NCBI GenBank assembly: GCA_028345515.1
Contig: JAOMDP010000002.1
Coordinates: forward strand, 65,180 to 129,179
Source of the DNA: Nitrospinota bacterium
GTDB lineage: Bacteria; Nitrospinota; Nitrospinia; Nitrospinales; VA-1
DNA: 64,000 nt
Direction: 5' to 3'
The translations under genes and the position numbers were made by a program. Position 1 is the stretch's first letter. Every line of letters begins with the position of its first letter. The notes under the pieces were generated by a model, which was given only the letters and a program-made list of their open reading frames with translations, was not told where the DNA came from and did not search any database. Below, piece by piece: positions 54,334 to 63,004 of this stretch.

Positions 54334-54407
54334 TCGGGTATCGTCTAATGGTAGGACGTTAGATTCTGGTTCTAAAGGTTGGGGTTCGACTCCCTGTACC
54401 CGAGCCA
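54334..54407 (+). tRNA. tRNA-Gln (anticodon CUG), CCA encoded
   Basis: Hand-folded cloverleaf. Acceptor TCGGGTA/TACCCGA with the U1-A72 pair typical of bacterial tRNA-Gln. D stem GTCT/GGAC. Anticodon arm TTAGA-TTCTGGT-TCTAA. T arm TGGGG-TTCGACT-CCCTG. Discriminator G followed by CCA. Confidence 0.9.
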
Positions 54408-54465: not shown

Positions 54466-54930
54466 ATGAATATTTATCGGAATCCATTTATTGTTGCGCT
54501 TTGTGCTCCCCTTTACCAACTGGTCGCTACCATCGCCATTACCAATGATTTTCTGATGGCGGCTATCTTCATCATGTTTACTTTGGGACTCATTGGAGCG
54601 TATGTTAGCGATTTCCCATTGCTGCCAACACTATATATGAATGAGGTAGCACATAAAACCTCCGTTTCTTCATTAATGGGGATGTTATTAGGACTGATGC
54701 TGTTCCTTGCCTTTGGCACAGGAGGTAATGAAGGCGGCGATGGCGGAATGATCTCCGCTGGTGGTAAGTTTATGGCGACCTGGGGAATTTTATGCCTACC
54801 CGCTTATCCACTTATGGTATTTCTAATTGTAGGGTTGAACAAACGTGATCTCGAAGCAGAAAATGTAATTAGAAAACAAAAGAAAAAGAAAAACAGCGGC
54901 CCACCAATCATGAAACGTGATGGGTTTTAA
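54466..54930 (+). CDS. Hypothetical polytopic membrane protein
   Basis: 154 aa. Strong RBS AAGAGGAGA. Four hydrophobic segments, a Gly-rich loop and a Lys-rich tail. Confidence 0.55.
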   Translation: MNIYRNPFIVALCAPLYQLVATIAITNDFLMAAIFIMFTLGLIGAYVSDFPLLPTLYMNEVAHKTSVSSLMGMLLGLMLFLAFGTGGNEGGDGGMISAGGKFMATWGILCLPAYPLMVFLIVGLNKRDLEAENVIRKQKKKKNSGPPIMKRDGF

Positions 54931-55102: not shown

Positions 55103-55249
55103 CTACTCCTTAAGCCCAAAAGCCTTGCCTGAAATCTCTAAATCTTTACTTTTTAATGTTTTAATTTGTTCGTTTGCAAGTTTTAGTTGAGATTCAACAA
55201 TTGCCAAACGCACCTTTAATTGATTATTTTTATCAAATTTAAGCTTCAT
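55103..55249 (-). CDS. Possible small coiled-coil protein (48 aa)
   Basis: Hand-translated ORF MKLKFDKNNQLKVRLAIVESQLKLANEQIKTLKSKDLEISGKAFGLKE. GGAGGA RBS lies 7 nt upstream of the ATG at 55249. Below the track threshold. Confidence 0.4.
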   Translation of the reverse strand: MKLKFDKNNQLKVRLAIVESQLKLANEQIKTLKSKDLEISGKAFGLKE

Positions 55250-55297: not shown

Positions 55298-55327
55298 TTG
55301 ACATTTTCCAACCTTTTTTATGATAAT
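55298..55327 (+). promoter_or_regulatory. Sigma70-like promoter
   Basis: TTGACA (55298-55303), 18-nt spacer, GATAAT (55322-55327). Confidence 0.55.
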
Positions 55328-55340
55328 GATAATCATTATT
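55322..55340 (+). promoter_or_regulatory. Fur box (ferric uptake regulator operator)
   Basis: GATAATGATAATCATTATT matches 18 of 19 positions of the classical consensus GATAATGATAATCATTATC. It overlaps the -10 hexamer. Confidence 0.75.
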
Positions 55341-55380: not shown

Positions 55381-55521
55381 GTGTTCGAAAAAACATACTT
55401 ACTAATTGTTGGGGTAATCGCAATCGCCAATTTATTTCTGATTATCCTATCTATTTTTTACTCCACCAATCTATTCAATACTTTTTTTGAGAAGTTATTC
55501 GTATTGCAAGGGATCACATAA
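55381..55521 (+). CDS. Possible small membrane peptide (46 aa)
   Basis: GTG start with an AGGAAA RBS 5 nt upstream. One TM helix (LLIVGVIAIANLFLIILSIF). First ORF after the Fur-box promoter. Confidence 0.35.
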   Translation: MFEKTYLLIVGVIAIANLFLIILSIFYSTNLFNTFFEKLFVLQGIT

Positions 55522-55556
55522 GCTCGATGTTTAAGCTTGAAGATTGGAATTAGATT

Positions 55557-55739
55557 ATGACTAATAAAACTCTTTTCATATTGGTCCTGATATTAGGAGC
55601 TTTTTTTTTGGCTTTAAACATCATGATTTTAAATCCAACTAAAAATCAAATTCCAAACCAGATTAAAACAGTCAACCCAAAAATTATTAGTCCAATAGAT
55701 TCCACAGAAACTTTGAAAAATGATGGATCCATTAAATAA
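55557..55739 (+). CDS. Possible small membrane protein (60 aa)
   Basis: ATG ORF. N-terminal TM helix (LFILVLILGAFFLALNIMIL) followed by a Pro/Asn/Ile-rich tail. Confidence 0.4.
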   Translation: MTNKTLFILVLILGAFFLALNIMILNPTKNQIPNQIKTVNPKIISPIDSTETLKNDGSIK

Positions 55740-55761
55740 ATTTTGTCTTGAATGGGAGAAC

Positions 55762-57489
55762 ATGATGATTAAGCAGCTAATACTTATTTTTTTCTGGTTA
55801 GCCTTAATAGCTGGGAATGCTTCGGGGATGCAAATAACCAATTCAAATTTTCAACAAATTTCTCCTAAAACAGGGTTCCTGGTTTTAGCACCAGACCGCG
55901 GTTTTGTAGGAAATAAGGAGACTCTTTCGGTTTTTAAAAATTTTAAAAAAGAATACTTGGCAAAAATTGTTTTTATTGGAAGAAAGTATGACGGATTAGA
56001 TAGTAATTATTCAGGATACATTCAAAAGGCCTTGTCGGGTTTTGATTCACTTTCCGTATCAAAGGTCGTAATTATTCCTCTATTTCTATCAAAATATAAT
56101 CACATTTTAAAGGAAGTAAGAAAACATCTTCCAGCATATAAATTTAAAGATCAGATTCATTGGAACGAAACTATGTCCGAGAGTTATCTAACTGGACAAA
56201 TACTTTTAGATCGTGTGAAAAAAATCAGTAAAAATTCAACCCAAGAAAAGCTTGTGATCCTTGGAAGAGGAGCACTTAATGAAAAGTCAGAGAATTTTAT
56301 GAAAAAAGAACTCGAGGGGTTATCTGATTATATAAAACAAAGAAAGGAATTTAAAAGTATTCAAACAGGTATTTATTACAGTTATAACGCAAAAGAAAAA
56401 CTCAGAGTAACCAAAGACAATGAAGTTGATGAAATGGTTATACATACTGCGGCAAAAAAGGGAAACACCTTGGTAATACCTTTTTTTATAGGTCCAAAAT
56501 ATTCAAATATGATGTCTTTGACTCATTTTTTTGACCGTAGGTTCCGGGACATAGACATTATTCATAATCCAGAAGAGATCTTGCTTCACCCAAATGTCCT
56601 GCTTTGGATGAAAAAAACTGCAAATAAATATATACCTTTAAATAGTCACGAACCCATTGGCATTGTGATAATGCCCCACGGCGCAACGCAACCTTACAAT
56701 GATGCAGTTGAAAAAACTATAGAACCTCTAAGGTCAAAGTATAAAGTTGAAATGGCCTATGGGATGGGTGATGCCGTAACTATTCAAAATGCGGTTTCTA
56801 ATCTTGAGTTTCAGGGTGTGAAAAAAATCGTATTTGTAAGGATGTATCCAACATCTGATCAGCTTAAAGAAAAAACGGATTATATCTTGGGATTGAGCGC
56901 AAAAATACCTGAACAGTGGGATGGATTAACTCCGCCTCAAATTAGAAGCAGCGCTATCATAAATACTTTTGGGGGATACGAGGAAGATAATCTGATTGCA
57001 GGAATATTTTTAGAAAGAATTAAAGAAGTCAGTAAAAAACCAAAAGAAGAAACGATTGTTTTGCTAGCTCACGGAAGTAGTGATGATCAAGCAGAGGTTT
57101 TGCGAAAAAAGAAAATGAAGAATCATATCGATTGGATTCAGAAACAGTTCAATCCTCCTTTTAAAAATATAAAAGGTATGGCTTTGAGAGAGGATTGGCC
57201 AGACAAAAGAGAAAAAGCCTTGAACGAGATTAAAAATATTATAGAGGAAGGAAATAAACGAGGACGGGTTATTGTGATTTCAAACCGTCTTTACGGAAGT
57301 GGCCCTTACAAACATTTCCTTAAAGGATTGAATTTTGAAATGAACTCAAAGGGATTAGCACCACACCCTAATTTAACAAGTTGGTTAGAAAAGGGTATAG
57401 CGTCAGTAATAAAAAATGAATTTTCTAAACAAATTTCAAATCAAAACGTAACTGATTTGAATATAAAGGTTTCGTCCACTATCAGGTAA
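55762..57489 (+). CDS. Secreted protein with four tandem CbiX/SirB-like (class II chelatase fold) modules
   Basis: ATG at 55762 with a GGGAGA RBS. Signal peptide MMIKQLILIFFWLALIAGNASG. Module starts are LVLAPDRGF, LVILGRGALN, VIMPHGATQPYND and VLLAHGSSDD. Module ends are VVIIPLFLSKYNH, LVIPFFIGPKYSN, IVFVRMYPTSDQ and VIVISNRLYGSGPY. Confidence 0.75.
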   Translation: MMIKQLILIFFWLALIAGNASGMQITNSNFQQISPKTGFLVLAPDRGFVGNKETLSVFKNFKKEYLAKIVFIGRKYDGLDSNYSGYIQKALSGFDSLSVSKVVIIPLFLSKYNHILKEVRKHLPAYKFKDQIHWNETMSESYLTGQILLDRVKKISKNSTQEKLVILGRGALNEKSENFMKKELEGLSDYIKQRKEFKSIQTGIYYSYNAKEKLRVTKDNEVDEMVIHTAAKKGNTLVIPFFIGPKYSNMMSLTHFFDRRFRDIDIIHNPEEILLHPNVLLWMKKTANKYIPLNSHEPIGIVIMPHGATQPYNDAVEKTIEPLRSKYKVEMAYGMGDAVTIQNAVSNLEFQGVKKIVFVRMYPTSDQLKEKTDYILGLSAKIPEQWDGLTPPQIRSSAIINTFGGYEEDNLIAGIFLERIKEVSKKPKEETIVLLAHGSSDDQAEVLRKKKMKNHIDWIQKQFNPPFKNIKGMALREDWPDKREKALNEIKNIIEEGNKRGRVIVISNRLYGSGPYKHFLKGLNFEMNSKGLAPHPNLTSWLEKGIASVIKNEFSKQISNQNVTDLNIKVSSTIR

Positions 57490-57547
57490 GCAAAGGATAA
57501 TCGTTAATCTCTTAAAAATAATATTTTAAATTAGAAAGGATAAGTCG

Positions 57548-58234
57548 ATGAAAAAGTTACTTTATTCTTTAATTATTGGCGTGTTTGTTTTGCTGGTGCA
57601 AAATGCTATGGCTCAAATGCCTCCTCCAACGGCACCGCCTGGTACGCCTCCGATGGCAGGCCGCACTGTTGATGAGTGCAAACAAATGAAACCCCGAGGC
57701 GACTACCAGTTAATGAAAGACAAGAAAAGGTGTTTCAGGGATGCTGCAAGAGCATTAGGGGCAGAGGAAATTGCACCAGGGGAATTACAAAGGTGCAAAC
57801 AAATAAAAGCCCGAGGCGATTTCGCCTTGATGAAACAAAAGAAAAATTGCATGAGAGACCTTGCAAGATCTTTGATGGCTGGTCCGGGTATAGCTCCAAC
57901 AGGAGATCCTAACATGCCTCCAACAGGCGTTCCTAACATGCCTCCTCCAACGGCACCGCCTGGTACGCCTCCGATGGCAGGCCGCACTGTTGATGAGTGC
58001 AAACAAATGAAACCCCGAGGCGACTACCAGTTAATGAAAGACAAGAAAAGGTGTTTCAGGGATGCTGCAAGAGCATTAGGGGCAGAGGAAATTGCACCAG
58101 GGGAATTACAAAGGTGCAAACAAATAAAAGCCCGAGGCGATTTCGCCTTGATGAAACAAAAGAAAAATTGCATGAGGGACCTTGCAAGATCTTTGATGGC
58201 TGGTCCGGGTATAGCTCCAGGAACAAATCCGTAA
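57548..58234 (+). CDS. Secreted Pro/Cys-rich tandem-repeat protein with four RGD motifs
   Basis: Signal peptide MKKLLYSLIIGVFVLLVQNAMA. Two identical 94-aa units, each with two C-x17-C sub-repeats (CKQMKPRGDYQLMKDKKRC, CKQIKARGDFALMKQKKNC). AAAGGA RBS. Confidence 0.8.
   Translation: MKKLLYSLIIGVFVLLVQNAMAQMPPPTAPPGTPPMAGRTVDECKQMKPRGDYQLMKDKKRCFRDAARALGAEEIAPGELQRCKQIKARGDFALMKQKKNCMRDLARSLMAGPGIAPTGDPNMPPTGVPNMPPPTAPPGTPPMAGRTVDECKQMKPRGDYQLMKDKKRCFRDAARALGAEEIAPGELQRCKQIKARGDFALMKQKKNCMRDLARSLMAGPGIAPGTNP
57617..58219 (+). repeat. Tandem direct duplication, period 321 bp
   Basis: 57617-57898 and 57938-58219 differ at one position by eye (AGA vs AGG Arg codon, near 57856 and 58177). The 39-bp linker carries a short internal direct repeat of CCTAACATGCCTCC. 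Confidence 0.95.
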
Positions 58235-58397
58235 CGGAACTCCTGGAAATTAATAATTGATTGTATCCAAGCCCACGGGGCTGAGAAAAAGATGATCTTC
58301 TCCGCTTGTCCAAGTTTTTCTATATCCAAAATAGAAAAACTTGGAACAACAGAGCAAGACAGGCTTCTTTCTAATCCCTAAAGGGAGAAGTCTCTGG

Positions 58398-58441
58398 ATC
58401 AGAAGGGGTTGGGTCCCCATTACCAATCCCTTCTGATTTTC
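58398..58441 (+). terminator. Hairpin with short T-tract, possible terminator of the 55.3-58.2 kb transcription unit
   Basis: Perfect 10-bp stem ATCAGAAGGG/CCCTTCTGAT (58398-58407 / 58428-58437), 20-nt loop, followed by TTT. Confidence 0.4.
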
Positions 58442-58682
58442 AAACAAAAGGATTTTACTATGCAAGCCAAATTAAAATAGATATCTGGAAGGTGTCTCCA
58501 AGTCCAACCCCCAAGATAACTCTAATTTCTAACTAGCAGATACCTTAGTTCGAAGCGAAACAGGCTTTCTTTGATAGAAAGCTCTGGGTAAGCGGAAAGG
58601 GGTTGCGCCCTTTTCGCTTATCACGCTTTGCAAACCTTAATTTATTAAAAACAAACTTTTTGAGGATCAATGGAGAAATATT

Positions 58683-59417
58683 ATGAAAAAGTTTTACTTA
58701 ATAGCTGTCATTATAGGAACTATTTTTATAACTATTGTAAGTGGTTGTGCTGTCAAAACTGTCGACACAAAAAACGTAAATCAGGAAATGGAAAGATCAA
58801 AAAAAGCTCCTGTCGTAGGTAAAATTCCTGCTAAAGAAAAAACAATTGAACCTCCAATAAAAAAAATTATTCCAGATAAAAATTTGTCATCTTTTATCGT
58901 GGAAGAAAGCCTGACAAATGAAAATAATATTGATAAATTTTCCGATTCGAATATTGATGATATTAATTTAATGCAAACCGAAAAAGCAACACCATCAAAA
59001 GAGCAGTTTAATCCATTCTTCAATCCAAATTCTAACGACAACGAGAAAAAGGATACTAATACAAAATTTATTCAATCTGAAAAACTAGATGATGTTTATT
59101 TCAGTTTTGATCAATACAACATAGATGAATCGGCAAAAAAGATTCTATCTAAAAACGCAGAGTGGCTTAAATATAACCCCGCCTTAAAGATTCAGTTGGC
59201 AGGTCATTGTGATGAAAGAGGAACCAATAATTATAATATTGCTTTAGGAGATAGACGGGCACTTTATGTAAAGAAGCAGCTCGCATTTTTAGGCATAAGT
59301 GAGAATAGAATGTTTGCAATCAGTTATGGGGAAGAAAAACCAACTTGCTCGGAAGGTGAAGAGAAATGCTGGAGAAAAAATCGTCGTGTTCAATTTTTAA
59401 TAATTTCTGATCAATGA
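58683..59417 (+). CDS. pal: Peptidoglycan-associated OmpA-domain lipoprotein (Pal-like) with long linker
   Basis: Lipobox IVSGC. C-terminal VYFSFDQYNI...LAGHCDERGTNNYNIALGDRRA...ISYGEEKP is the Pal/OmpA_C signature. A 100-aa low-complexity linker is present. Confidence 0.85.
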   Translation: MKKFYLIAVIIGTIFITIVSGCAVKTVDTKNVNQEMERSKKAPVVGKIPAKEKTIEPPIKKIIPDKNLSSFIVEESLTNENNIDKFSDSNIDDINLMQTEKATPSKEQFNPFFNPNSNDNEKKDTNTKFIQSEKLDDVYFSFDQYNIDESAKKILSKNAEWLKYNPALKIQLAGHCDERGTNNYNIALGDRRALYVKKQLAFLGISENRMFAISYGEEKPTCSEGEEKCWRKNRRVQFLIISDQ

Positions 59418-59660: not shown

Positions 59661-61571
59661 TTAATTCCATCCATATGGGAACCCCAACAAGTCTGCCCTT
59701 GCCTTAATTCCCTTAGCAAGTTGATACTCGTTATTTAAATTTAAATGATTTATCAAACTCAAAAATATGGAACGACCTAAAATAGGATTGGCCCAATAAA
59801 AATTAACATGTTGCATAACAAACATGTTTTTAGTTTTGTTTGAAATATTCTTACTTTCCGGCAAAGAATTAAAAAGCACGAATTTGTAATTAGGATCGCT
59901 ACCTTGCTTTATAGCTTTCACAAACTCAAGGTAATCACTTATGAATGGATTTTGTTTATAGTTTTTCTGAAATTTTAATCTTTCCTTTTCAAAAGATATA
60001 TTTTTTAATAAAGGATTTAATTGTATTGATTTTAATAAATATTTTTTAGAAAGATTTTCTTCTTTTATTATTAAGTAAAGGCAACTCAATATCCAAGGAG
60101 TAATAGAATTATCAGGGCTCATCAAAATGGATTTTTTCAATAAGCTTTCAAGTTTTCTAAAAAGTTTTGGCTTTTTAGTATCTTCGTGAAACTGAAGCAA
60201 ACTTCCCAAGGCAAACTCGTTGATCGCCCTCACATAAATAAATACTTTAAGATTTTTATGTGAAGAACTGCAAAAAGTTTTACTTAAAGCAACGCAACCC
60301 GAACCTGCAAGATCTTCAATTCTATTAGAGGCAAAAATACTTTTTAAATAATCCAGTTCAAGTTTATTATTCGACCAACTTGCCTTGGAAATATTTATTT
60401 TATTATTATTTACTAAACCAATTATGGGCTCCAATAATTTAAATGCCATAATCCTATTACCCGACCCAGTTGGATGAACAGGGTCGAAAAAGAAGTCATT
60501 TTTACCAGGTATATTAATTGAAAGGCCATTATCAACATAAGATGCATGAGGATACTCTCTGGCCAATTTAATTTTAATTTCACTAGTAGATAGGAGCGCT
60601 TTTTGACGGTATGTTAACTCCCGAGTATTCATATTCCCGAACTGAACATATTCTTTAAAATTTTTTACGGAATTTTTTTCATAAACCCCTGGTAATCCCA
60701 TTAAAATTAATTTTATATTTTTTTCTTTTGTTTTTTCAGCAATCTCGCGCAAATTATTCTCATAAAGATCCAGGTTTTTCTTCAAAACATTAAACCCTAA
60801 TTCTGAATTTGTTTTTTTTACTAGTTCGATAATTTCAAGACGTAATAAACGAAATATATTTGACTTAATTAATAAAGGGTGGTGACTTTCACAATAATCC
60901 CTAGAGTTTGTTATGTCAGCTGATCTGAATTTGTTTATATCGTTCCAACCACTCATTAGAACTAGCAGATCCGGTTTCAATTCAATAATTTCATTTTGAA
61001 ATCTTGTTTTTATCTGACATGTATTATGACCCCACATACCAGCATTAATTACCTGGAAATATTCTTTTTTAGTTTTTGATTGATTTAGCATTCGCTCTAA
61101 AATTCTTGGATACGTCAATTCATTTTCATGCATCCCCGCAGTAGTGGAACCTCCCATAGTGACAATTCGAAAAATATTAGAATCCTTCTTTTTTACAAAG
61201 TAAGGCCCTCTATACCCTAAGCTGTTAATTGCAATATCACCATTTTCATTACGTATAATTCCTTCCTTTTTATTAAAATTTAATTTTGTTGATATAAGTT
61301 TCTTTGATACAACCTTATTGAGTTTGCCTTTCATGATTGTCTGAACCTCTATCGGAAAACTCTTTGTTTCCTTATCCATTGCTGCTTTACGTATCCTATA
61401 ACCTAAATTTTCATCATACTCCATAAAAGGATGATGCTTTTCCATCAACCCAATAATCCCATAAATATTTTTATTGGTAATTATATTTCCCGAAAACCAC
61501 TCCAGAGCCGCAAAGATTAAACTATTAATCAAAATAGTGAAAAATATAATTTTTTTCATTTTTGTTTGCAT
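59661..61571 (-). CDS. Membrane-anchored SGNH/GDSL-type hydrolase with helical-repeat C-terminal domain
   Basis: N-terminal TM. Block I IVTMGGSTTAG, block II NAGMWGHN, block III LMSGWNDI, block V DPVHPTGSG. 636 aa. Confidence 0.7.
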   Translation of the reverse strand: MQTKMKKIIFFTILINSLIFAALEWFSGNIITNKNIYGIIGLMEKHHPFMEYDENLGYRIRKAAMDKETKSFPIEVQTIMKGKLNKVVSKKLISTKLNFNKKEGIIRNENGDIAINSLGYRGPYFVKKKDSNIFRIVTMGGSTTAGMHENELTYPRILERMLNQSKTKKEYFQVINAGMWGHNTCQIKTRFQNEIIELKPDLLVLMSGWNDINKFRSADITNSRDYCESHHPLLIKSNIFRLLRLEIIELVKKTNSELGFNVLKKNLDLYENNLREIAEKTKEKNIKLILMGLPGVYEKNSVKNFKEYVQFGNMNTRELTYRQKALLSTSEIKIKLAREYPHASYVDNGLSINIPGKNDFFFDPVHPTGSGNRIMAFKLLEPIIGLVNNNKINISKASWSNNKLELDYLKSIFASNRIEDLAGSGCVALSKTFCSSSHKNLKVFIYVRAINEFALGSLLQFHEDTKKPKLFRKLESLLKKSILMSPDNSITPWILSCLYLIIKEENLSKKYLLKSIQLNPLLKNISFEKERLKFQKNYKQNPFISDYLEFVKAIKQGSDPNYKFVLFNSLPESKNISNKTKNMFVMQHVNFYWANPILGRSIFLSLINHLNLNNEYQLAKGIKARADLLGFPYGWN

Positions 61572-61957: not shown

Positions 61958-63004
61958 TTGGCCAATCTTATTATATTTTTTTTATTTTTCGCAATTTTAG
62001 AAGGTGTTGCAAGTTTCTATTATGCTTACCAAGAAGTGCGCCAAAAAATCAAGAAAGAACCGTTTCTTGCTGAACGGCTCCATACTGAATATGATCCATT
62101 ATTAGGGTGGATCAATAAGCCTAATATTTCTATTGATAACATGTATGGTCCGAATGTGTATCTCAAAACTAACGGCCAACGATTTAGGGGGGAAACTGAT
62201 TTCACTACCAACGTTCCAAACGGAAGAATTAGAGTTATATGTTCAGGTGATTCGTTTACCCTTGGTTATGGCGTAGATAACGCGAGCACTTGGTGTAATT
62301 ATCTTGAGCTGATTGACCCACGCATTCAGAGTGTCAACATGGGGCAGGGTGGATATGGCGTTGGCCAGGCTTATCTTTGGTATAAACGCGATGGTGCGCA
62401 ACTCGACCACTCAATACATATCTTCGCCTTCATCAGTGAAGACTTTAAACGCATGATGAAGAAAAGTTTTCTGGGCGTGCCAAAACCATTACTACGTGTA
62501 AGAAATGAAGAAATTATAGTTGAAAACACACCGATCAGTAGATTATCGTTTCGCAAAATTCATGAAAAATACTTAAAATTTTTTAATATTGCTAGACTAG
62601 CCAAAAAAGTTAGAGGAATCAGCTTTTCAGAAAACGTAAATAAGCCCTCGGTTTTAATTGAAAAGGAGATGGAGGAGTTAATAGGAAAAGTTTTTGGCAA
62701 TTTAAAAAAAATTAATAGAGCTAAAAACAGTAAACTTATACTCGTTCATTTACCGACACAATACGAACATAGAAGTGCCTACTATGAAAATATTTACAAA
62801 TTTGTTCGCCAGGAGGCAGAAAAAAAAGGAATTACTTACCTTAATTTAGTTAGGGAAATACGACAAGTTTCTTCTTCCGAAATGGTAAAGTTTTTTTTCC
62901 AAAAAGATATTAAAGATTTCGCCTATTCGAAAGGACATTTGACCCCTATAGGTAATTTGTACGTCGCTAAAAAGATTTCTAAAACTCTTACCAAAAGTAA
63001 TTAA
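61958..63004 (+). CDS. Membrane-anchored SGNH/GDSL-type hydrolase
   Basis: VICSGDSFTLGYG (GDS block), NMGQGGYG, and KGHLTPIG near the C-terminus. The track start is the TTG at 61958. An in-frame CTG at 61922 is preceded by GGAGGA at 6 nt and would give MKKIFQKYLKLC... Confidence 0.7.
   Translation: MANLIIFFLFFAILEGVASFYYAYQEVRQKIKKEPFLAERLHTEYDPLLGWINKPNISIDNMYGPNVYLKTNGQRFRGETDFTTNVPNGRIRVICSGDSFTLGYGVDNASTWCNYLELIDPRIQSVNMGQGGYGVGQAYLWYKRDGAQLDHSIHIFAFISEDFKRMMKKSFLGVPKPLLRVRNEEIIVENTPISRLSFRKIHEKYLKFFNIARLAKKVRGISFSENVNKPSVLIEKEMEELIGKVFGNLKKINRAKNSKLILVHLPTQYEHRSAYYENIYKFVRQEAEKKGITYLNLVREIRQVSSSEMVKFFFQKDIKDFAYSKGHLTPIGNLYVAKKISKTLTKSN

What the first reader, a model, noticed from the sequence alone, without database searches (positions are those of the whole stretch)
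55381..59417. Candidate iron-responsive envelope module of unknown function
All genes downstream of the Fur-box promoter are on the same strand and carry export signals. They are a 46-aa and a 60-aa single-TM peptide, a 575-aa secreted four-module chelatase-fold protein, a 228-aa secreted Cys/RGD repeat protein, and (after a 448-bp structured spacer) a Pal-like OmpA lipoprotein with an unusually long linker. There is no TonB-dependent receptor, ABC transporter, siderophore synthetase or heme oxygenase, which are the usual content of Fur regulons. The combination does not correspond to any iron or heme acquisition system I know. It could be a periplasmic tetrapyrrole or metal handling system.
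Basis: inference. Interest (0 to 1): 0.7.

Follow-up and report, generated by a model that had tools for sequence, protein, structure and literature searches.

The report
Iron-regulated periplasmic chelatase-like protein, Nitrospina
A marine nitrite-oxidising bacterium (Nitrospina) has an iron-repressed operon for a tiny membrane peptide and a secreted double chelatase-fold protein; in related bacteria the same protein sits beside haem-type outer-membrane receptors, so it is probably an uncharacterised periplasmic step in taking iron from haem-like compounds.

Summary
There is an 18/19 Fur box over the -10 of an 11/12 sigma-70 promoter, followed by 46-aa and 60-aa TM peptides. Next come a secreted 575-aa four-module class II chelatase-fold protein, a 228-aa Cys/RGD repeat protein, a strongly structured 448-bp spacer and a Pal-like OmpA lipoprotein.

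It is not one conserved five-gene module. Across about 95 related loci, the recurring unit in Nitrospinaceae is Fur-box promoter, small TM peptide and CbiX-like protein. This unit is also found in cultured Nitrospina watsonii. The 60-aa peptide and the repeat protein come and go between relatives that are 83-92% identical. The OmpA gene is only syntenic, and it lies beyond a terminator-like hairpin.

The claim that this resembles no known iron system fails once relatives are examined. In Nitrospirota, some gammaproteobacterial MAGs and distant metagenomic relatives, the gene lies beside a TonB-dependent receptor, often with TonB, an HmuY-like lipoprotein and bacterioferritin. The receptors match haem or B12 receptor families best.

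My best reading is a periplasmic haem or metalloporphyrin-handling protein for iron acquisition, either a binder or a dechelatase. It is analogous to P. gingivalis IhtA/IhtB and to HmuY-HmuR-HmuS. The family is uncharacterised, and I file it as a new variant of a known kind.

The parts
55298..55327 (+). Sigma-70-type promoter TTGACA-18 nt-GATAAT
   Evidence: 11/12 match and the best site in the region. Nearly identical in L077, L060, L061, L065 and L004. N. watsonii has the same layout, TTGACG-N17-TATGAT.
55322..55340 (.). Fur box GATAATGATAATCATTATT overlapping the -10 hexamer
   Evidence: 18/19 match to the E. coli consensus. It is the only site in the window, and 0 of 100 shuffles reached the observed count. 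Orthologous boxes at 17-18/19 occur in L001, L004, L005/6, L060, L061, L065, L070, L077, L016, L021 and L031.
55381..55521 (+). 46-aa single-TM peptide (pep46), first gene of the Fur-controlled operon
   Evidence: AGGAAA lies 6 nt upstream of the GTG start. Homologues at 52-98% identity occupy the same position in L004, L005/6, L007-9/L063, L060, L061, L065, L070 and L077. L003 has a 49-aa MFEK... peptide, and N. watsonii has a 36-aa TM peptide that shows no clear sequence similarity, at the same place.
55557..55739 (+). 60-aa single-TM ORF (pep60); variable, probably dispensable
   Evidence: Present in L077 at 98% identity. Its body is deleted in L060, L061 and L065, and L004 has only short duplicated remnants.
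55762..57489 (+). Secreted 575-aa tandem class II chelatase-fold (CbiX-like) protein. Modules: M1 36-155, M2 162-290, M3 299-423, M4 430-554. Invariant residues: H306-G, H437-G and REDW 476-479.
   Evidence: GGGAG ribosome-binding site. Pfam CbiX at 24.7 bits against a cutoff of 22. AF2 model with pLDDT 86. Foldseek matches to SirB, CbiK(P), CbiK and DR2241. Internal duplication at E 1.4e-19. 449 homologues and 254 clusters at E<=1e-30. Relatives are linked to TonB-dependent receptors and HmuY-like proteins.
57548..58234 (+). 228-aa secreted Pro-rich protein with four C-X17-C helix-loop-helix units; strain-variable accessory gene
   Evidence: Internal 298-nt repeat at 97% identity. Only 6 homologues among 5.8e9 proteins. 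Next to the CbiX-like gene in L010, L058 and L060, but cleanly deleted in L011. RGD is not conserved. AF2 model has low to moderate confidence.
58396..58444 (+). Terminator-like hairpin (15-17 bp stem followed by UUUUC); probable end of the Fur-controlled transcript
   Evidence: dG -27.5 kcal/mol, z -5.1. The same hairpin with compensatory changes occurs in L011 (inverted repeat I4).
58549..58636 (+). Conserved Y-shaped RNA structure (closing stem plus two hairpins, then UCACGCUUU) between the operon and the OmpA gene
   Evidence: z -6.0. The same three-way fold is predicted in L007 and L003. Seven of 13 P3 pairs show compensatory changes. The covariance model finds it in loci outside the training set: L071 at 51.6 bits, and L003, L066 and L072. 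No Rfam match.
58683..59417 (+). Pal-like OmpA-family lipoprotein (lipobox VSGC, linker of about 110 aa, OmpA domain 135-240); syntenic neighbour, probably transcribed separately
   Evidence: PF00691 at 68 bits. TIGR02802 at 129.2 against 125.35. Lies downstream of the CbiX-like gene in L011, L005/6, L071, L003 and L066. Absent in L001 and in the L007 clade.
55103..55249 (-). 48-aa ORF, coiled-coil-like judged by eye from the sequence, divergent from the Fur-box promoter (AGGAGG ribosome-binding site); conserved neighbour of unknown role
   Evidence: Homologues at 53-81% identity in L077, L060, L061, L065, L004, L003 and L068. Its distance to the Fur box varies, with a ~115-nt insertion in L060, L061 and L065.

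Best explanation
The functional unit is a Fur-repressed operon. Its parts are a promoter with an overlapping Fur box, a small inner-membrane peptide and a Sec-exported 575-aa protein made of two homologous class II (CbiX-type) chelatase folds.

When iron is scarce, Fur leaves the -10 region and the protein is exported to the periplasm. There it handles a metallo-tetrapyrrole, most probably haem, that has crossed the outer membrane through a TonB-dependent receptor. It either holds the haem or removes its iron, acting as a chelatase run in reverse. The iron can then enter the cell by a general ferrous or ferric importer.

The C-terminal half keeps the two family-wide invariant 'HG' histidines, H306 and H437, which are presumed from homology with SirB to face the inter-domain cleft, and is the likely ligand site. 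The N-terminal half has lost both histidines (D45-R46 and R-G) but is highly conserved, so it probably binds a partner or a second ligand.

In Nitrospirota the gene is still embedded in the receptor/TonB/HmuY-like locus. In marine Nitrospina it has become a stand-alone Fur unit.

The repeat protein and the Pal-like lipoprotein are neighbours and do not belong to the mechanism.

Shown here: the Fur box and its conservation, the export signal, the fold, the duplication and the gene neighbourhoods. Inferred: haem as the ligand, the dechelation or binding chemistry, and the role of the peptide.
For: **Fur box**
- 18/19 match over the -10 hexamer.
- Identical architecture in N. watsonii and in close relatives.
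- Enriched upstream of the operon across the family: 22 of 71 loci against at most 6.6% of background windows.

**Fold**
- AF2 pLDDT 86.
- SirB TM 0.72, plus periplasmic CbiK of D. vulgaris, CbiK and CpfC.
- Pfam CbiX hit in the window protein and in 15 of 21 relatives, including single-unit forms.

**Neighbourhood**
- A TonB-dependent receptor is present in 43 of 91 loci and adjacent in 34.
- Pfam confirms the receptor barrel and plug, TonB_C, HmuY (PF14064), ferritin, PepSY_TM and MacB/FtsX.
- The same holds in relatives at only 27-40% identity.
- The best NCBIfam family for the adjacent receptors is the haem/haemoglobin receptor family in 4 of 6 tested. One of these (L021) is above the curated cutoff, 388.8 against 323.75.

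**Against a B12 role**
- No cobalamin riboswitch in the window region or in 11 related loci.

**Precedents**
- IhtB/FetB is an exported CbiK-like haemin-binding chelatase encoded next to the receptor IhtA (PMC12094164, PMC13065792).
- HmuS is a chelatase-family haem dechelatase in an HmuY-HmuR operon (PMC12583661).
Against: - The window itself has no receptor, TonB or HmuY-like gene near the operon, so the link to haem rests on relatives at 50% identity or less.
- The canonical His pair of CbiX/SirB (His10 and His76 in one domain) is not kept in any module. Chelatase or dechelatase chemistry is therefore unproven, and simple binding is at least as likely.
- Two of six adjacent receptors score best against the B12 receptor model, and five of six are below all curated cutoffs.
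- The HmuY-like proteins carry a cupredoxin-like domain, which leaves another metal as a possible substrate.
- FetB, the nearest studied analogue, showed no reverse activity on haemin in vitro (PMC13065792).
- No expression, binding or phenotype data exist for this family.
Confidence: 0.5

Rival explanations
1. It is a periplasmic binding or shuttle protein for a ferric siderophore or another non-tetrapyrrole iron chelate. The two-lobed alpha/beta fold would be used as a periplasmic-binding-protein-like clamp, with iron released by reduction in the periplasm.
For: - The fold also matches type I periplasmic binding proteins, though weakly (TM 0.26-0.39).
- PepSY_TM proteins lie in several loci; members of that family act as siderophore reductases (my own knowledge).
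- AraC-type regulators lie in several loci. This is my reading of the cluster-10 sequence, and Pfam was not run on it.
- The adjacent receptors also hit siderophore receptor models.
- No FecCD-type importer is adjacent, which fits release of iron in the periplasm.
Against: - Structural similarity to chelatases is much stronger (SirB TM 0.72) than to binding proteins.
- Pfam places the family in CbiX.
- HmuY-like partners and haem-family best hits for the receptors point to tetrapyrroles.
Confidence: 0.17
2. It handles corrinoids or cobalt. It would be a periplasmic cobaltochelatase-like protein that binds or remodels B12 precursors taken up through a BtuB-like receptor.
For: - CbiX and CbiK are cobaltochelatases.
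- Two of six adjacent receptors score best against the TonB-B12 model.
- N. marina depends on salvage of B12 intermediates (bioRxiv 10.1101/2020.07.02.185504).
Against: - Control is by a Fur box.
- No cobalamin riboswitch in the window region or in 11 related loci.
- Bacterioferritin and TonB are the recurring neighbours, and cob/cbi genes are not among them.
- The B12 receptor scores are far below the cutoff (177-216 against 599.7).
Confidence: 0.08
3. It is a periplasmic metal (Fe2+, Mn2+, Ni2+ or Cu) chaperone or buffer that uses the conserved His, Glu and Asp residues and involves no tetrapyrrole.
For: - The invariant residues H306, H437, E477 and D478 could form a metal site.
- A cupredoxin-like domain occurs in the HmuY-like neighbour.
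- D. vulgaris CbiK(P) and FetB bind Co and Mn (PMC13065792).
Against: - TonB-dependent receptors import chelates, not free ions, in most known cases.
- The large inter-domain cleft of the chelatase fold fits a macrocycle.
- Nothing in the neighbourhood encodes a metal-ion importer.
Confidence: 0.1
4. One reading: all five genes form one co-transcribed, iron-responsive envelope module in which the peptides, the repeat protein and the long-linker Pal-like lipoprotein work together with the chelatase-like protein.
For: - All five genes are on the same strand, close together, and all carry export signals.
- The OmpA gene follows the CbiX-like gene in four marine lineages.
- The repeat protein is found only next to the CbiX-like gene.
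Against: - pep60 and the repeat protein are presence/absence polymorphisms among relatives at 83-92% identity.
- OmpA is absent in N. watsonii and in the L007 clade.
- A conserved terminator-like hairpin and a further structured element lie before the OmpA gene.
- None of the Nitrospirota or more distant loci whose gene maps were clustered carries the repeat protein or this OmpA gene.
Confidence: 0.08

Closest known systems
P. gingivalis Iht system (IhtA receptor plus IhtB/FetB, an exported CbiK-like haemin-binding chelatase)
   Same: An exported class II chelatase-fold protein is encoded next to a TonB-dependent receptor in an iron/haem acquisition locus, and is proposed to act as a reverse ferrochelatase (PMC12094164, PMC13065792). 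The receptor adjacency is seen here in relatives.
   Different: - IhtB is a single 269-residue CbiK-type unit and an outer-membrane lipoprotein. This protein is a 575-aa tandem duplication of the CbiX type with a plain signal peptide.
- The window protein has no Pfam CbiK hit.
- The Iht system has an FecCD-type ABC importer. These loci have a MacB-type ABC transporter or none.
- The window operon has no receptor at all.
Desulfovibrio vulgaris periplasmic CbiK (CbiK-P; PDB 2xvx/2xvz)
   Same: A Sec-exported class II chelatase fold in the periplasm that binds metalloporphyrins (PMC13065792). It is a structural match to the model.
   Different: - The Foldseek match is modest (TM 0.58-0.59, 10-11% identity).
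- CbiK-P keeps the catalytic histidines and retains cobaltochelatase activity (my own knowledge).
- CbiK-P is a single unit.
- No Fur-box or small-peptide operon is known for it.
Bacteroidota hmu operon (HmuY hemophore, HmuR receptor, HmuS dechelatase)
   Same: The locus logic in Nitrospirota and distant relatives is the same: an HmuY-family lipoprotein, a haem-type TonB-dependent receptor and a chelatase-superfamily protein. HmuS has been shown to strip iron from haem (PMC12583661).
   Different: - HmuS is a class I (CobN/ChlH-like), membrane-bound, NADH-dependent enzyme of very different size and sequence. This protein is a soluble class II fold.
- The HmuY-like partner here has an added cupredoxin-like domain.
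- None of these partner genes is in the window.
Cytoplasmic CbiX/SirB sirohydrochlorin chelatases (PF01903)
   Same: Best structural match (SirB TM 0.72). Pfam CbiX above threshold. The PLFL and HG motifs are recognisable.
   Different: - This protein is exported.
- It is a tandem duplication.
- The His10/His76 pair is not retained in any one module.
- There is no sirohaem or B12 gene context.
- It is Fur-controlled.
Deinococcus radiodurans DR2241 (PDB 2jh3)
   Same: Top Foldseek hit (E 1.4e-5). It is also a multi-domain protein built on CbiX-like modules.
   Different: 13% identity and TM 0.30-0.37. DR2241 has additional, unrelated domains, as stated in its PDB entry title. Its function is also unknown (my own knowledge).

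Membership tests
CbiX/SirB class II chelatases (PF01903) | Two-lobed (beta-alpha)4 chelatase fold | tested here: met
   AF2 model with pLDDT 86. Foldseek SirB TM 0.72, plus CbiK and CpfC. The fold is present twice (hhalign N half against C half, E 1.4e-19).
CbiX/SirB class II chelatases (PF01903) | Sequence score above the Pfam gathering threshold | tested here: met
   24.7 bits against 22, confined to residues 100-145 of the 589-aa ORF translation, i.e. about 86-131 of the 575-aa protein. Fifteen of 21 relatives also hit CbiX, best E 4.6e-12. The PDB profile search gives only E 0.0015 to SirB.
CbiX/SirB class II chelatases (PF01903) | Catalytic histidine pair in one domain (SirB His10 and His76) | tested here: not met
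   - M1 has D45-R46 in place of His-Gly, and the His76-equivalent H114 varies between H and P.
- M3 and M4 keep only the first His (H306, H437).
- The second position is occupied by the RMY and NRLY motifs.

CbiX/SirB class II chelatases (PF01903) | Cytoplasmic enzyme in a sirohaem or cobalamin biosynthesis context | tested here: not met
   All members have an N-terminal signal peptide. The neighbours are iron-uptake genes, not cob/cbi/sir genes. No cobalamin riboswitch was found.
Exported CbiK-type haem-binding chelatases (IhtB/FetB, CbiK-P) | Export signal on a class II chelatase fold | tested here: met
   The signal peptide is read from the sequence. Single-unit homologues carry signal peptides or lipoboxes.
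Exported CbiK-type haem-binding chelatases (IhtB/FetB, CbiK-P) | Sequence membership in the CbiK family | tested here: not met
   No CbiK Pfam hit. Identity to 2xvx/2xvz in Foldseek is 10-11%.
Exported CbiK-type haem-binding chelatases (IhtB/FetB, CbiK-P) | Haem or metalloporphyrin binding | not testable with these tools
   This needs purified protein and spectroscopy.
Fur regulon member | Fur box matching the consensus and placed to block the promoter | tested here: met
   18/19 match overlapping the -10 hexamer.
Fur regulon member | Box conserved upstream of orthologues | tested here: met
   Found in N. watsonii, L004, L005/6, L060, L061, L065, L070, L077, L016, L021, L031 and others.
Fur regulon member | Iron-dependent expression and Fur binding | not testable with these tools
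   No transcriptome or proteome data on this gene were found.
Hmu-type haem uptake locus | HmuY-family lipoprotein next to a haem-type TonB-dependent receptor | tested here: inconclusive
   Met in relatives: PF14064 at 62 bits, HmuY-like genes in 13 loci, and one receptor above the TIGR01786 cutoff. Not met in the window.
Hmu-type haem uptake locus | HmuS, a CobN/ChlH-like class I chelatase-family protein | tested here: not met
   The chelatase-like protein here has a class II fold. No CobN-like gene appears in any of the clustered loci.
Pal (Tol-Pal peptidoglycan-associated lipoprotein), for the 244-aa protein | Lipobox plus C-terminal OmpA domain scoring above TIGR02802 | tested here: met
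   Lipobox VSGC. TIGR02802 at 129.2 against 125.35, a marginal pass. NF008067 Pal at 95.5 against 261 does not pass.
Pal (Tol-Pal peptidoglycan-associated lipoprotein), for the 244-aa protein | Encoded in a tolQRAB-pal cluster | tested here: not met
   No tol genes flank it. The neighbours are the CbiX-like operon and a GDSL-like gene.

The most novel reading that the evidence does not exclude
The tandem CbiX-like proteins would be a new family of soluble periplasmic haem dechelatases, that is, class II chelatases running in reverse. They would give nitrite oxidisers (Nitrospina, Nitrospira) and Manganitrophus an oxygen-independent way to strip iron from haem or other metalloporphyrins. The His-less N-terminal copy and the small Fur-co-regulated membrane peptide would couple the reaction to an inner-membrane partner. 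In marine Nitrospina this would be a stand-alone iron-stress response, relevant to iron-limited oxygen-minimum zones.
Probability: 0.2. Interest if true: 0.8.

Novelty: new variant of a known kind. Interest (0 to 1): 0.58.

Why it matters
Nitrospina and Nitrospira carry out most nitrite oxidation in the ocean and in engineered systems, and their nitrite oxidoreductase is very rich in iron. How they obtain iron is largely unknown: they make no siderophores, and genome papers only note 'multiple TonB-like receptors'.

This work gives a conserved, Fur-controlled, uncharacterised periplasmic protein family of about 250 clusters at 50% identity. The family is tied by gene neighbourhood to haem-type receptors.

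It also gives a concrete, testable candidate for haem-iron use by nitrifiers, and a second, structurally unrelated case alongside HmuS of a chelatase-family protein recruited to iron acquisition. The protein could additionally serve as an iron-stress marker in ocean metaproteomes.

Tried and rejected
- **pep46 homologues.** The search gave only 3 proteins, because small ORFs are rarely called. Conservation had to be shown by tblastn and ORF scans of the loci.
- **pep60.** No tblastn homologues beyond L077. It was shown to be an indel polymorphism and rejected as a core part.
- **HAMP_2 hit on the repeat protein.** 26.3 bits with no stretch passing on its own. I rejected it as a compositional artefact of a helical, Lys/Arg-rich sequence.
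- **RGD as a functional motif.** Rejected because homologues carry KGK or KGN.
- **AF2 model of the repeat protein.** Too uncertain (pLDDT 63, pTM 0.32) to justify a fold search.
- **Riboswitch or known RNA in the spacer or leader.** Nothing in Rfam at E<=1 apart from a tRNA and a chance S15 hit.
- **Cobalamin control.** No riboswitch in 11 loci.
- **Link to periplasmic nitrite oxidoreductase maturation.** Considered because the family is concentrated in nitrite oxidisers, and one locus (L004) has a NarJ-like gene 7 kb away. Rejected because the family also occurs in Manganitrophaceae, gammaproteobacterial MAGs and high-GC metagenome contigs, always with uptake genes. Fur repression also argues against a cofactor-insertion role that would be needed when iron is plentiful.
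- **Literature.** Searches found no paper on this family.
- **Operon-start Fur-box scan.** The automatic scan is imperfect because of spurious ORF calls. For example, it missed the N. watsonii box that searches show.

Full report
**1. What is in the window**

- A TTGACA-18-GATAAT promoter at 55298-55327 is an 11/12 match and the best promoter-like site in the region.
- Its -10 hexamer is overlapped by GATAATGATAATCATTATT (55322-55340), which matches the E. coli Fur box at 18/19. This is the only such site in 64 kb. The expected count is 0.03, and none of 100 shuffles reached the observed count.
- Downstream lie a 46-aa ORF (GTG start, AGGAAA ribosome-binding site) and a 60-aa ORF, each with one hydrophobic segment.
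- Next is a 575-aa ORF (GGGAG ribosome-binding site, start at 55762 or 55765) with a signal peptide.
- Then comes a 228-aa ORF with a signal peptide ending AMA|Q, followed by a 448-nt spacer.
- Last is a 244-aa lipoprotein (lipobox VSGC) with an OmpA domain.

The genomic context is housekeeping: MnmA-like and RsmD-like ORFs (my reading of the translations; Pfam was not run on them), tRNA-Gln, arginine decarboxylase and DnaE. The closest relatives of the large protein are labelled uncultured Nitrospina sp. and are 90-92% identical at the protein level. The organism is therefore a marine Nitrospina.

**2. The large protein**

- Pfam gives a weak but above-threshold CbiX hit, 24.7 bits against a cutoff of 22. 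NCBIfam gives sub-threshold hits to the CfbA nickelochelatase. A profile search against PDB sequences reaches SirB only at E 0.0015.
- An AF2 model built on 37 homologues is confident (pLDDT 86, pTM 0.84). It shows four (beta-alpha)4 modules: M1 36-155, M2 162-290, M3 299-423 and M4 430-554.
- The best Foldseek matches in the PDB are class II chelatases. They are DR2241, SirB (target-normalised TM 0.72), the periplasmic CbiK of D. vulgaris, Salmonella CbiK and CpfC/HemH. Periplasmic sugar-binding proteins match much more weakly, at TM 0.26-0.39.
- The two halves are homologous (hhalign 99.2%, E 1.4e-19). M1 pairs with M3, and M2 pairs with M4. More precisely, the protein is a tandem duplication of a CbiX-type unit.
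- The canonical SirB/CbiX histidine pair is not kept in any module.
  - The C half keeps the 'HG' histidine at the end of the first strand of each module (H306, H437).
  - The position of the second histidine is taken by the conserved RMY (360-362) and NRLY (508-511) motifs.
  - The N half has D45-R46 and R-G where the C half has H-G. Its His76-equivalent, H114, is not conserved.
- An exhaustive profile search finds 254 clusters (50% identity) at E<=1e-30 and 1139 at E<=1e-3. These include forms of about 300 aa that match only the C half and carry a signal peptide or lipobox. H306-G, H437-G, R419, R476, D478 and G514 are invariant across both the tandem and the single forms. Fifteen of 21 hit Pfam CbiX.
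- I infer that the C half is the ancestral working unit. The N half is a histidine-less copy that is nevertheless strongly constrained.

**3. Is the five-gene set a module?**

I collected about 95 related loci from genomes and metagenomes.

*Conserved in the marine Nitrospina clade (65-97% identity)*
- The promoter and Fur box are almost invariant.
- pep46 homologues sit between the box and the CbiX-like gene in every locus of the 73-97% identity clades that has enough upstream sequence. These are L004, L005/6, L007-9/L063, L060, L061, L065, L070 and L077. In the 65-69% identity clade (L003, L066-L069, L072) tblastn finds no pep46 homologue and there is no Fur box close to the gene. L003 has a 49-aa MFEK... 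peptide at the pep46 position, with its nearest Fur box 2 kb upstream.
- Cultured N. watsonii (59% GC, 48% protein identity) has the same design. The order is TTGACG-N17-TATGAT with GATAATGAAAATCATTATC over the -10, then a 36-aa TM peptide with no clear sequence similarity to pep46, then the CbiX-like gene.

*Not conserved*
- The body of pep60 is deleted in L060, L061 and L065. L004 has only duplicated short remnants.
- The repeat-protein gene is present in L010, L058 and L060. It is cleanly missing in L011, a 92% relative, where the sequence joins ATGAAAAAG directly to the spacer. Its family has 6 members among 5.8 billion proteins. Their motif reads KGK or KGN where the window protein has RGD.
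- The OmpA gene follows the CbiX-like gene in L011, L005/6, L071, L003 and L066. It is absent in N. watsonii and in the L007 clade. In the L007 clade its upstream region survives without the gene.

*The spacer*
- It is strongly structured (z -6.9).
- It contains a terminator-like hairpin at 58396-58439 followed by UUUUC (dG -27.5 kcal/mol, z -5.1). The hairpin is conserved in L011 with compensatory changes.
- It also contains a separate Y-shaped element at 58549-58636, described in section 7.

I conclude that the Fur-controlled unit is the peptide or peptides plus the CbiX-like gene, with the repeat protein added in this strain. The Pal-like gene is a syntenic neighbour and is most likely transcribed on its own.

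**4. What the relatives reveal**

I clustered all ORFs in the loci and ran Pfam on cluster representatives.
- Outside marine Nitrospina, the CbiX-like gene sits in iron-uptake loci. A TonB-dependent receptor (barrel plus plug) is present in 43 of 91 loci and adjacent in 34.
- Other recurring neighbours are:
  - TonB;
  - a lipoprotein with an HmuY domain (PF14064, 62 bits) plus a cupredoxin-like domain;
  - bacterioferritin;
  - a PepSY_TM-like protein;
  - a MacB/FtsX-type ABC system.
- This holds for Nitrospira, Manganitrophaceae and four 'Gammaproteobacteria' MAGs. It also holds for metagenome contigs whose protein is only 27-40% identical (GC 53-74%), where the order is often receptor, HmuY-like, CbiX-like.
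- Of six adjacent receptors tested, four score best against the TonB haem/haemoglobin receptor family. One of these (L021) is above the curated cutoff, 388.8 against 323.75. The other two score best against the B12 receptor model, far below its cutoff.
- No cobalamin riboswitch occurs in the window region or in 11 loci.
- Fur-like boxes (15/19 or better) lie upstream of the operon in 22 of 71 distinct loci, against at most 6.6% of random windows of equal length. Several Nitrospira loci share the variant GATATTGAGAATTAGTATC upstream of the TonB gene.

**5. Mechanism**

*Shown*
- Iron-type transcriptional control by sequence, and its conservation across orthologues.
- Export to the periplasm, judged from the signal peptide.
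- A duplicated class II chelatase fold.
- Linkage to haem-type TonB-dependent uptake genes across several phyla.

*Inferred*
- Under iron limitation the protein accumulates in the periplasm. There it binds a metalloporphyrin, most likely haem, imported by a TonB-dependent receptor.
- It either holds the haem or releases its iron.
- H306 and H437 are the candidate ligand or catalytic residues.
- The His-less N half and the small membrane peptide may mediate docking.

*Why dechelation is plausible but unproven*
- Chelatase-family proteins are known to be used this way. HmuS, a class I enzyme, converts haem to PPIX and Fe(II) in an HmuY-HmuR operon (PMC12583661).
- IhtB/FetB is an exported CbiK-like haemin-binding protein next to the receptor IhtA, and is proposed to be a reverse ferrochelatase (PMC12094164). 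In vitro, however, FetB inserted Mn and Co and showed no reverse activity on haemin (PMC13065792).
- Since the canonical His pair is missing here, I rate 'binder or shuttle' and 'dechelatase' about equally.
- I put the overall haem/metalloporphyrin iron-acquisition reading at 0.5. The narrower statement 'Fur-regulated periplasmic component of TonB-dependent iron acquisition' I put at about 0.75.

*Rivals*
- A siderophore or other chelate binder (0.17).
- A metal-ion chaperone (0.10).
- Corrinoid or cobalt handling (0.08).

**6. Comparison and novelty**

The system works like the Iht and Hmu systems but is a member of neither. The protein is not CbiK-type by sequence (no CbiK Pfam hit and 10-11% identity to CbiK-P), and it is not CobN-like. 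It belongs to the CbiX superfamily by fold and by Pfam score. It fails the catalytic-histidine and cytoplasmic-pathway criteria of bona fide CbiX/SirB enzymes.

I found no publication on this family. I therefore class it as a new variant of a known kind, namely an exported chelatase-fold protein in iron or haem acquisition. Its distinctive points are the tandem duplication, the co-regulated TM peptide and its concentration in nitrite oxidisers.

Interest is moderate to good. For specialists in nitrifier physiology or haem uptake it is a concrete, testable lead. It is not a categorically new system, and the window by itself carries only the stand-alone version.

**7. Side observations**

- The Y-shaped RNA element at 58549-58636 has a closing stem CGAAGCG/CGCUUUG, two hairpins and then UCACGCUUU.
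  - It is predicted with the same architecture in three diverged lineages (z -4.7 to -6.3).
  - Seven of 13 pairs in its long hairpin show compensatory changes.
  - A covariance model built on five sequences recovers it in loci outside the training set. It lies downstream of the CbiX-like gene in L071, L003 and L066, and upstream of it in L072 and L012.
  - It has no Rfam match.
- A 48-aa ORF that looks coiled-coil-like by eye (55103-55249, minus strand, AGGAGG ribosome-binding site) is conserved divergently from the Fur promoter.
- HU-like genes recur in the relatives' loci. In L007 one lies inside the presumed Fur operon.

Noticed in passing
window 58549-58636 (+); also L005 5249-5336, L007 4107-4214, L011 1346-1432, L071 1047-1134, L003 7915-8021, L072 77-182, L012 5777-5871: A conserved Y-shaped RNA structure of about 90-110 nt: a closing stem, two hairpins, then UCACGCUUU. 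It shows compensatory base changes and has no Rfam match. It usually lies just downstream of the CbiX-like gene, even where the OmpA gene has been lost. In three loci it lies upstream of that gene instead. It could be a 3' UTR or terminator structure, a leader of the OmpA gene, or a small mobile structured repeat.
   Followed up: partly
window 55103-55249 (-): A 48-aa ORF, coiled-coil-like by eye, with a strong AGGAGG ribosome-binding site. It is transcribed divergently from the Fur-box promoter and is conserved at 53-81% identity in seven related loci. The Fur box lies 73 nt upstream of its start here, but the spacing varies in relatives. No family match in NCBIfam; it was not run against Pfam.
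   Followed up: partly
window 57548-58234 versus L011 1090-1110: The repeat-protein gene is a presence/absence polymorphism between near-identical strains. The junction lies at short ATGAAAAAG / GAAAAAG repeats. The gene itself contains a 298-nt internal duplication at 97% identity, and relatives differ in the number of Pro-rich PPTGDPNMPP units.
   Followed up: yes
L003 4069-4404 and 5361-5621; L005 6160-6504; L007 1896-2249: HU/IHF-like (Bac_DNA_binding) genes recur beside the CbiX-like gene in marine Nitrospina relatives. In L007 one lies between pep46 and the CbiX-like gene, downstream of a 16/19 Fur box, which suggests an iron-regulated nucleoid protein. None is near the operon in the window.
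   Followed up: partly
L024, L054, L055, L032, L035, L040, L043 (about 1.0-1.2 kb upstream of the CbiX-like gene, ahead of the TonB gene): Nitrospira loci share a variant palindrome, GAT(A/T)TTGAGAAT(T/A)(A/G)(T/A)T(A/C)TC (core GAGAAT..ATTCTC), in place of the classical GATAAT..ATTATC Fur box. It may be the Nitrospira Fur-family operator.
   Followed up: no
P0192-P0276: Single-unit homologues of about 290-330 aa match only the C-terminal half. Many have lipoprotein signal sequences. They keep both HG histidines and the REDW motif, and they probably represent the ancestral exported form of the family.
   Followed up: partly
L016 9998-11584, L019 10895-12427, L079 3339-4568: Lipoproteins that combine a cupredoxin-like domain with an HmuY domain are encoded directly after the TonB-dependent receptor in the CbiX-like loci of Nitrospirota and distant relatives. 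They have no NCBIfam family. I did not check whether this domain combination has been described before.
   Followed up: no
window 59661-61571 (-) and 61958-63004 (+): Two divergent, AT-rich (about 30% GC) genes encode GDSL/SGNH-like proteins of 636 and 348 aa just downstream of the OmpA gene. Their GC content is lower than that of the flanking housekeeping genes, so this may be an acquired envelope or polysaccharide-modification island.
   Followed up: no
window 54334-54407 (+): tRNA-Gln (CTG) lies immediately upstream of the region. A 154-aa membrane ORF with no family match lies at 54466-54930.
   Followed up: no
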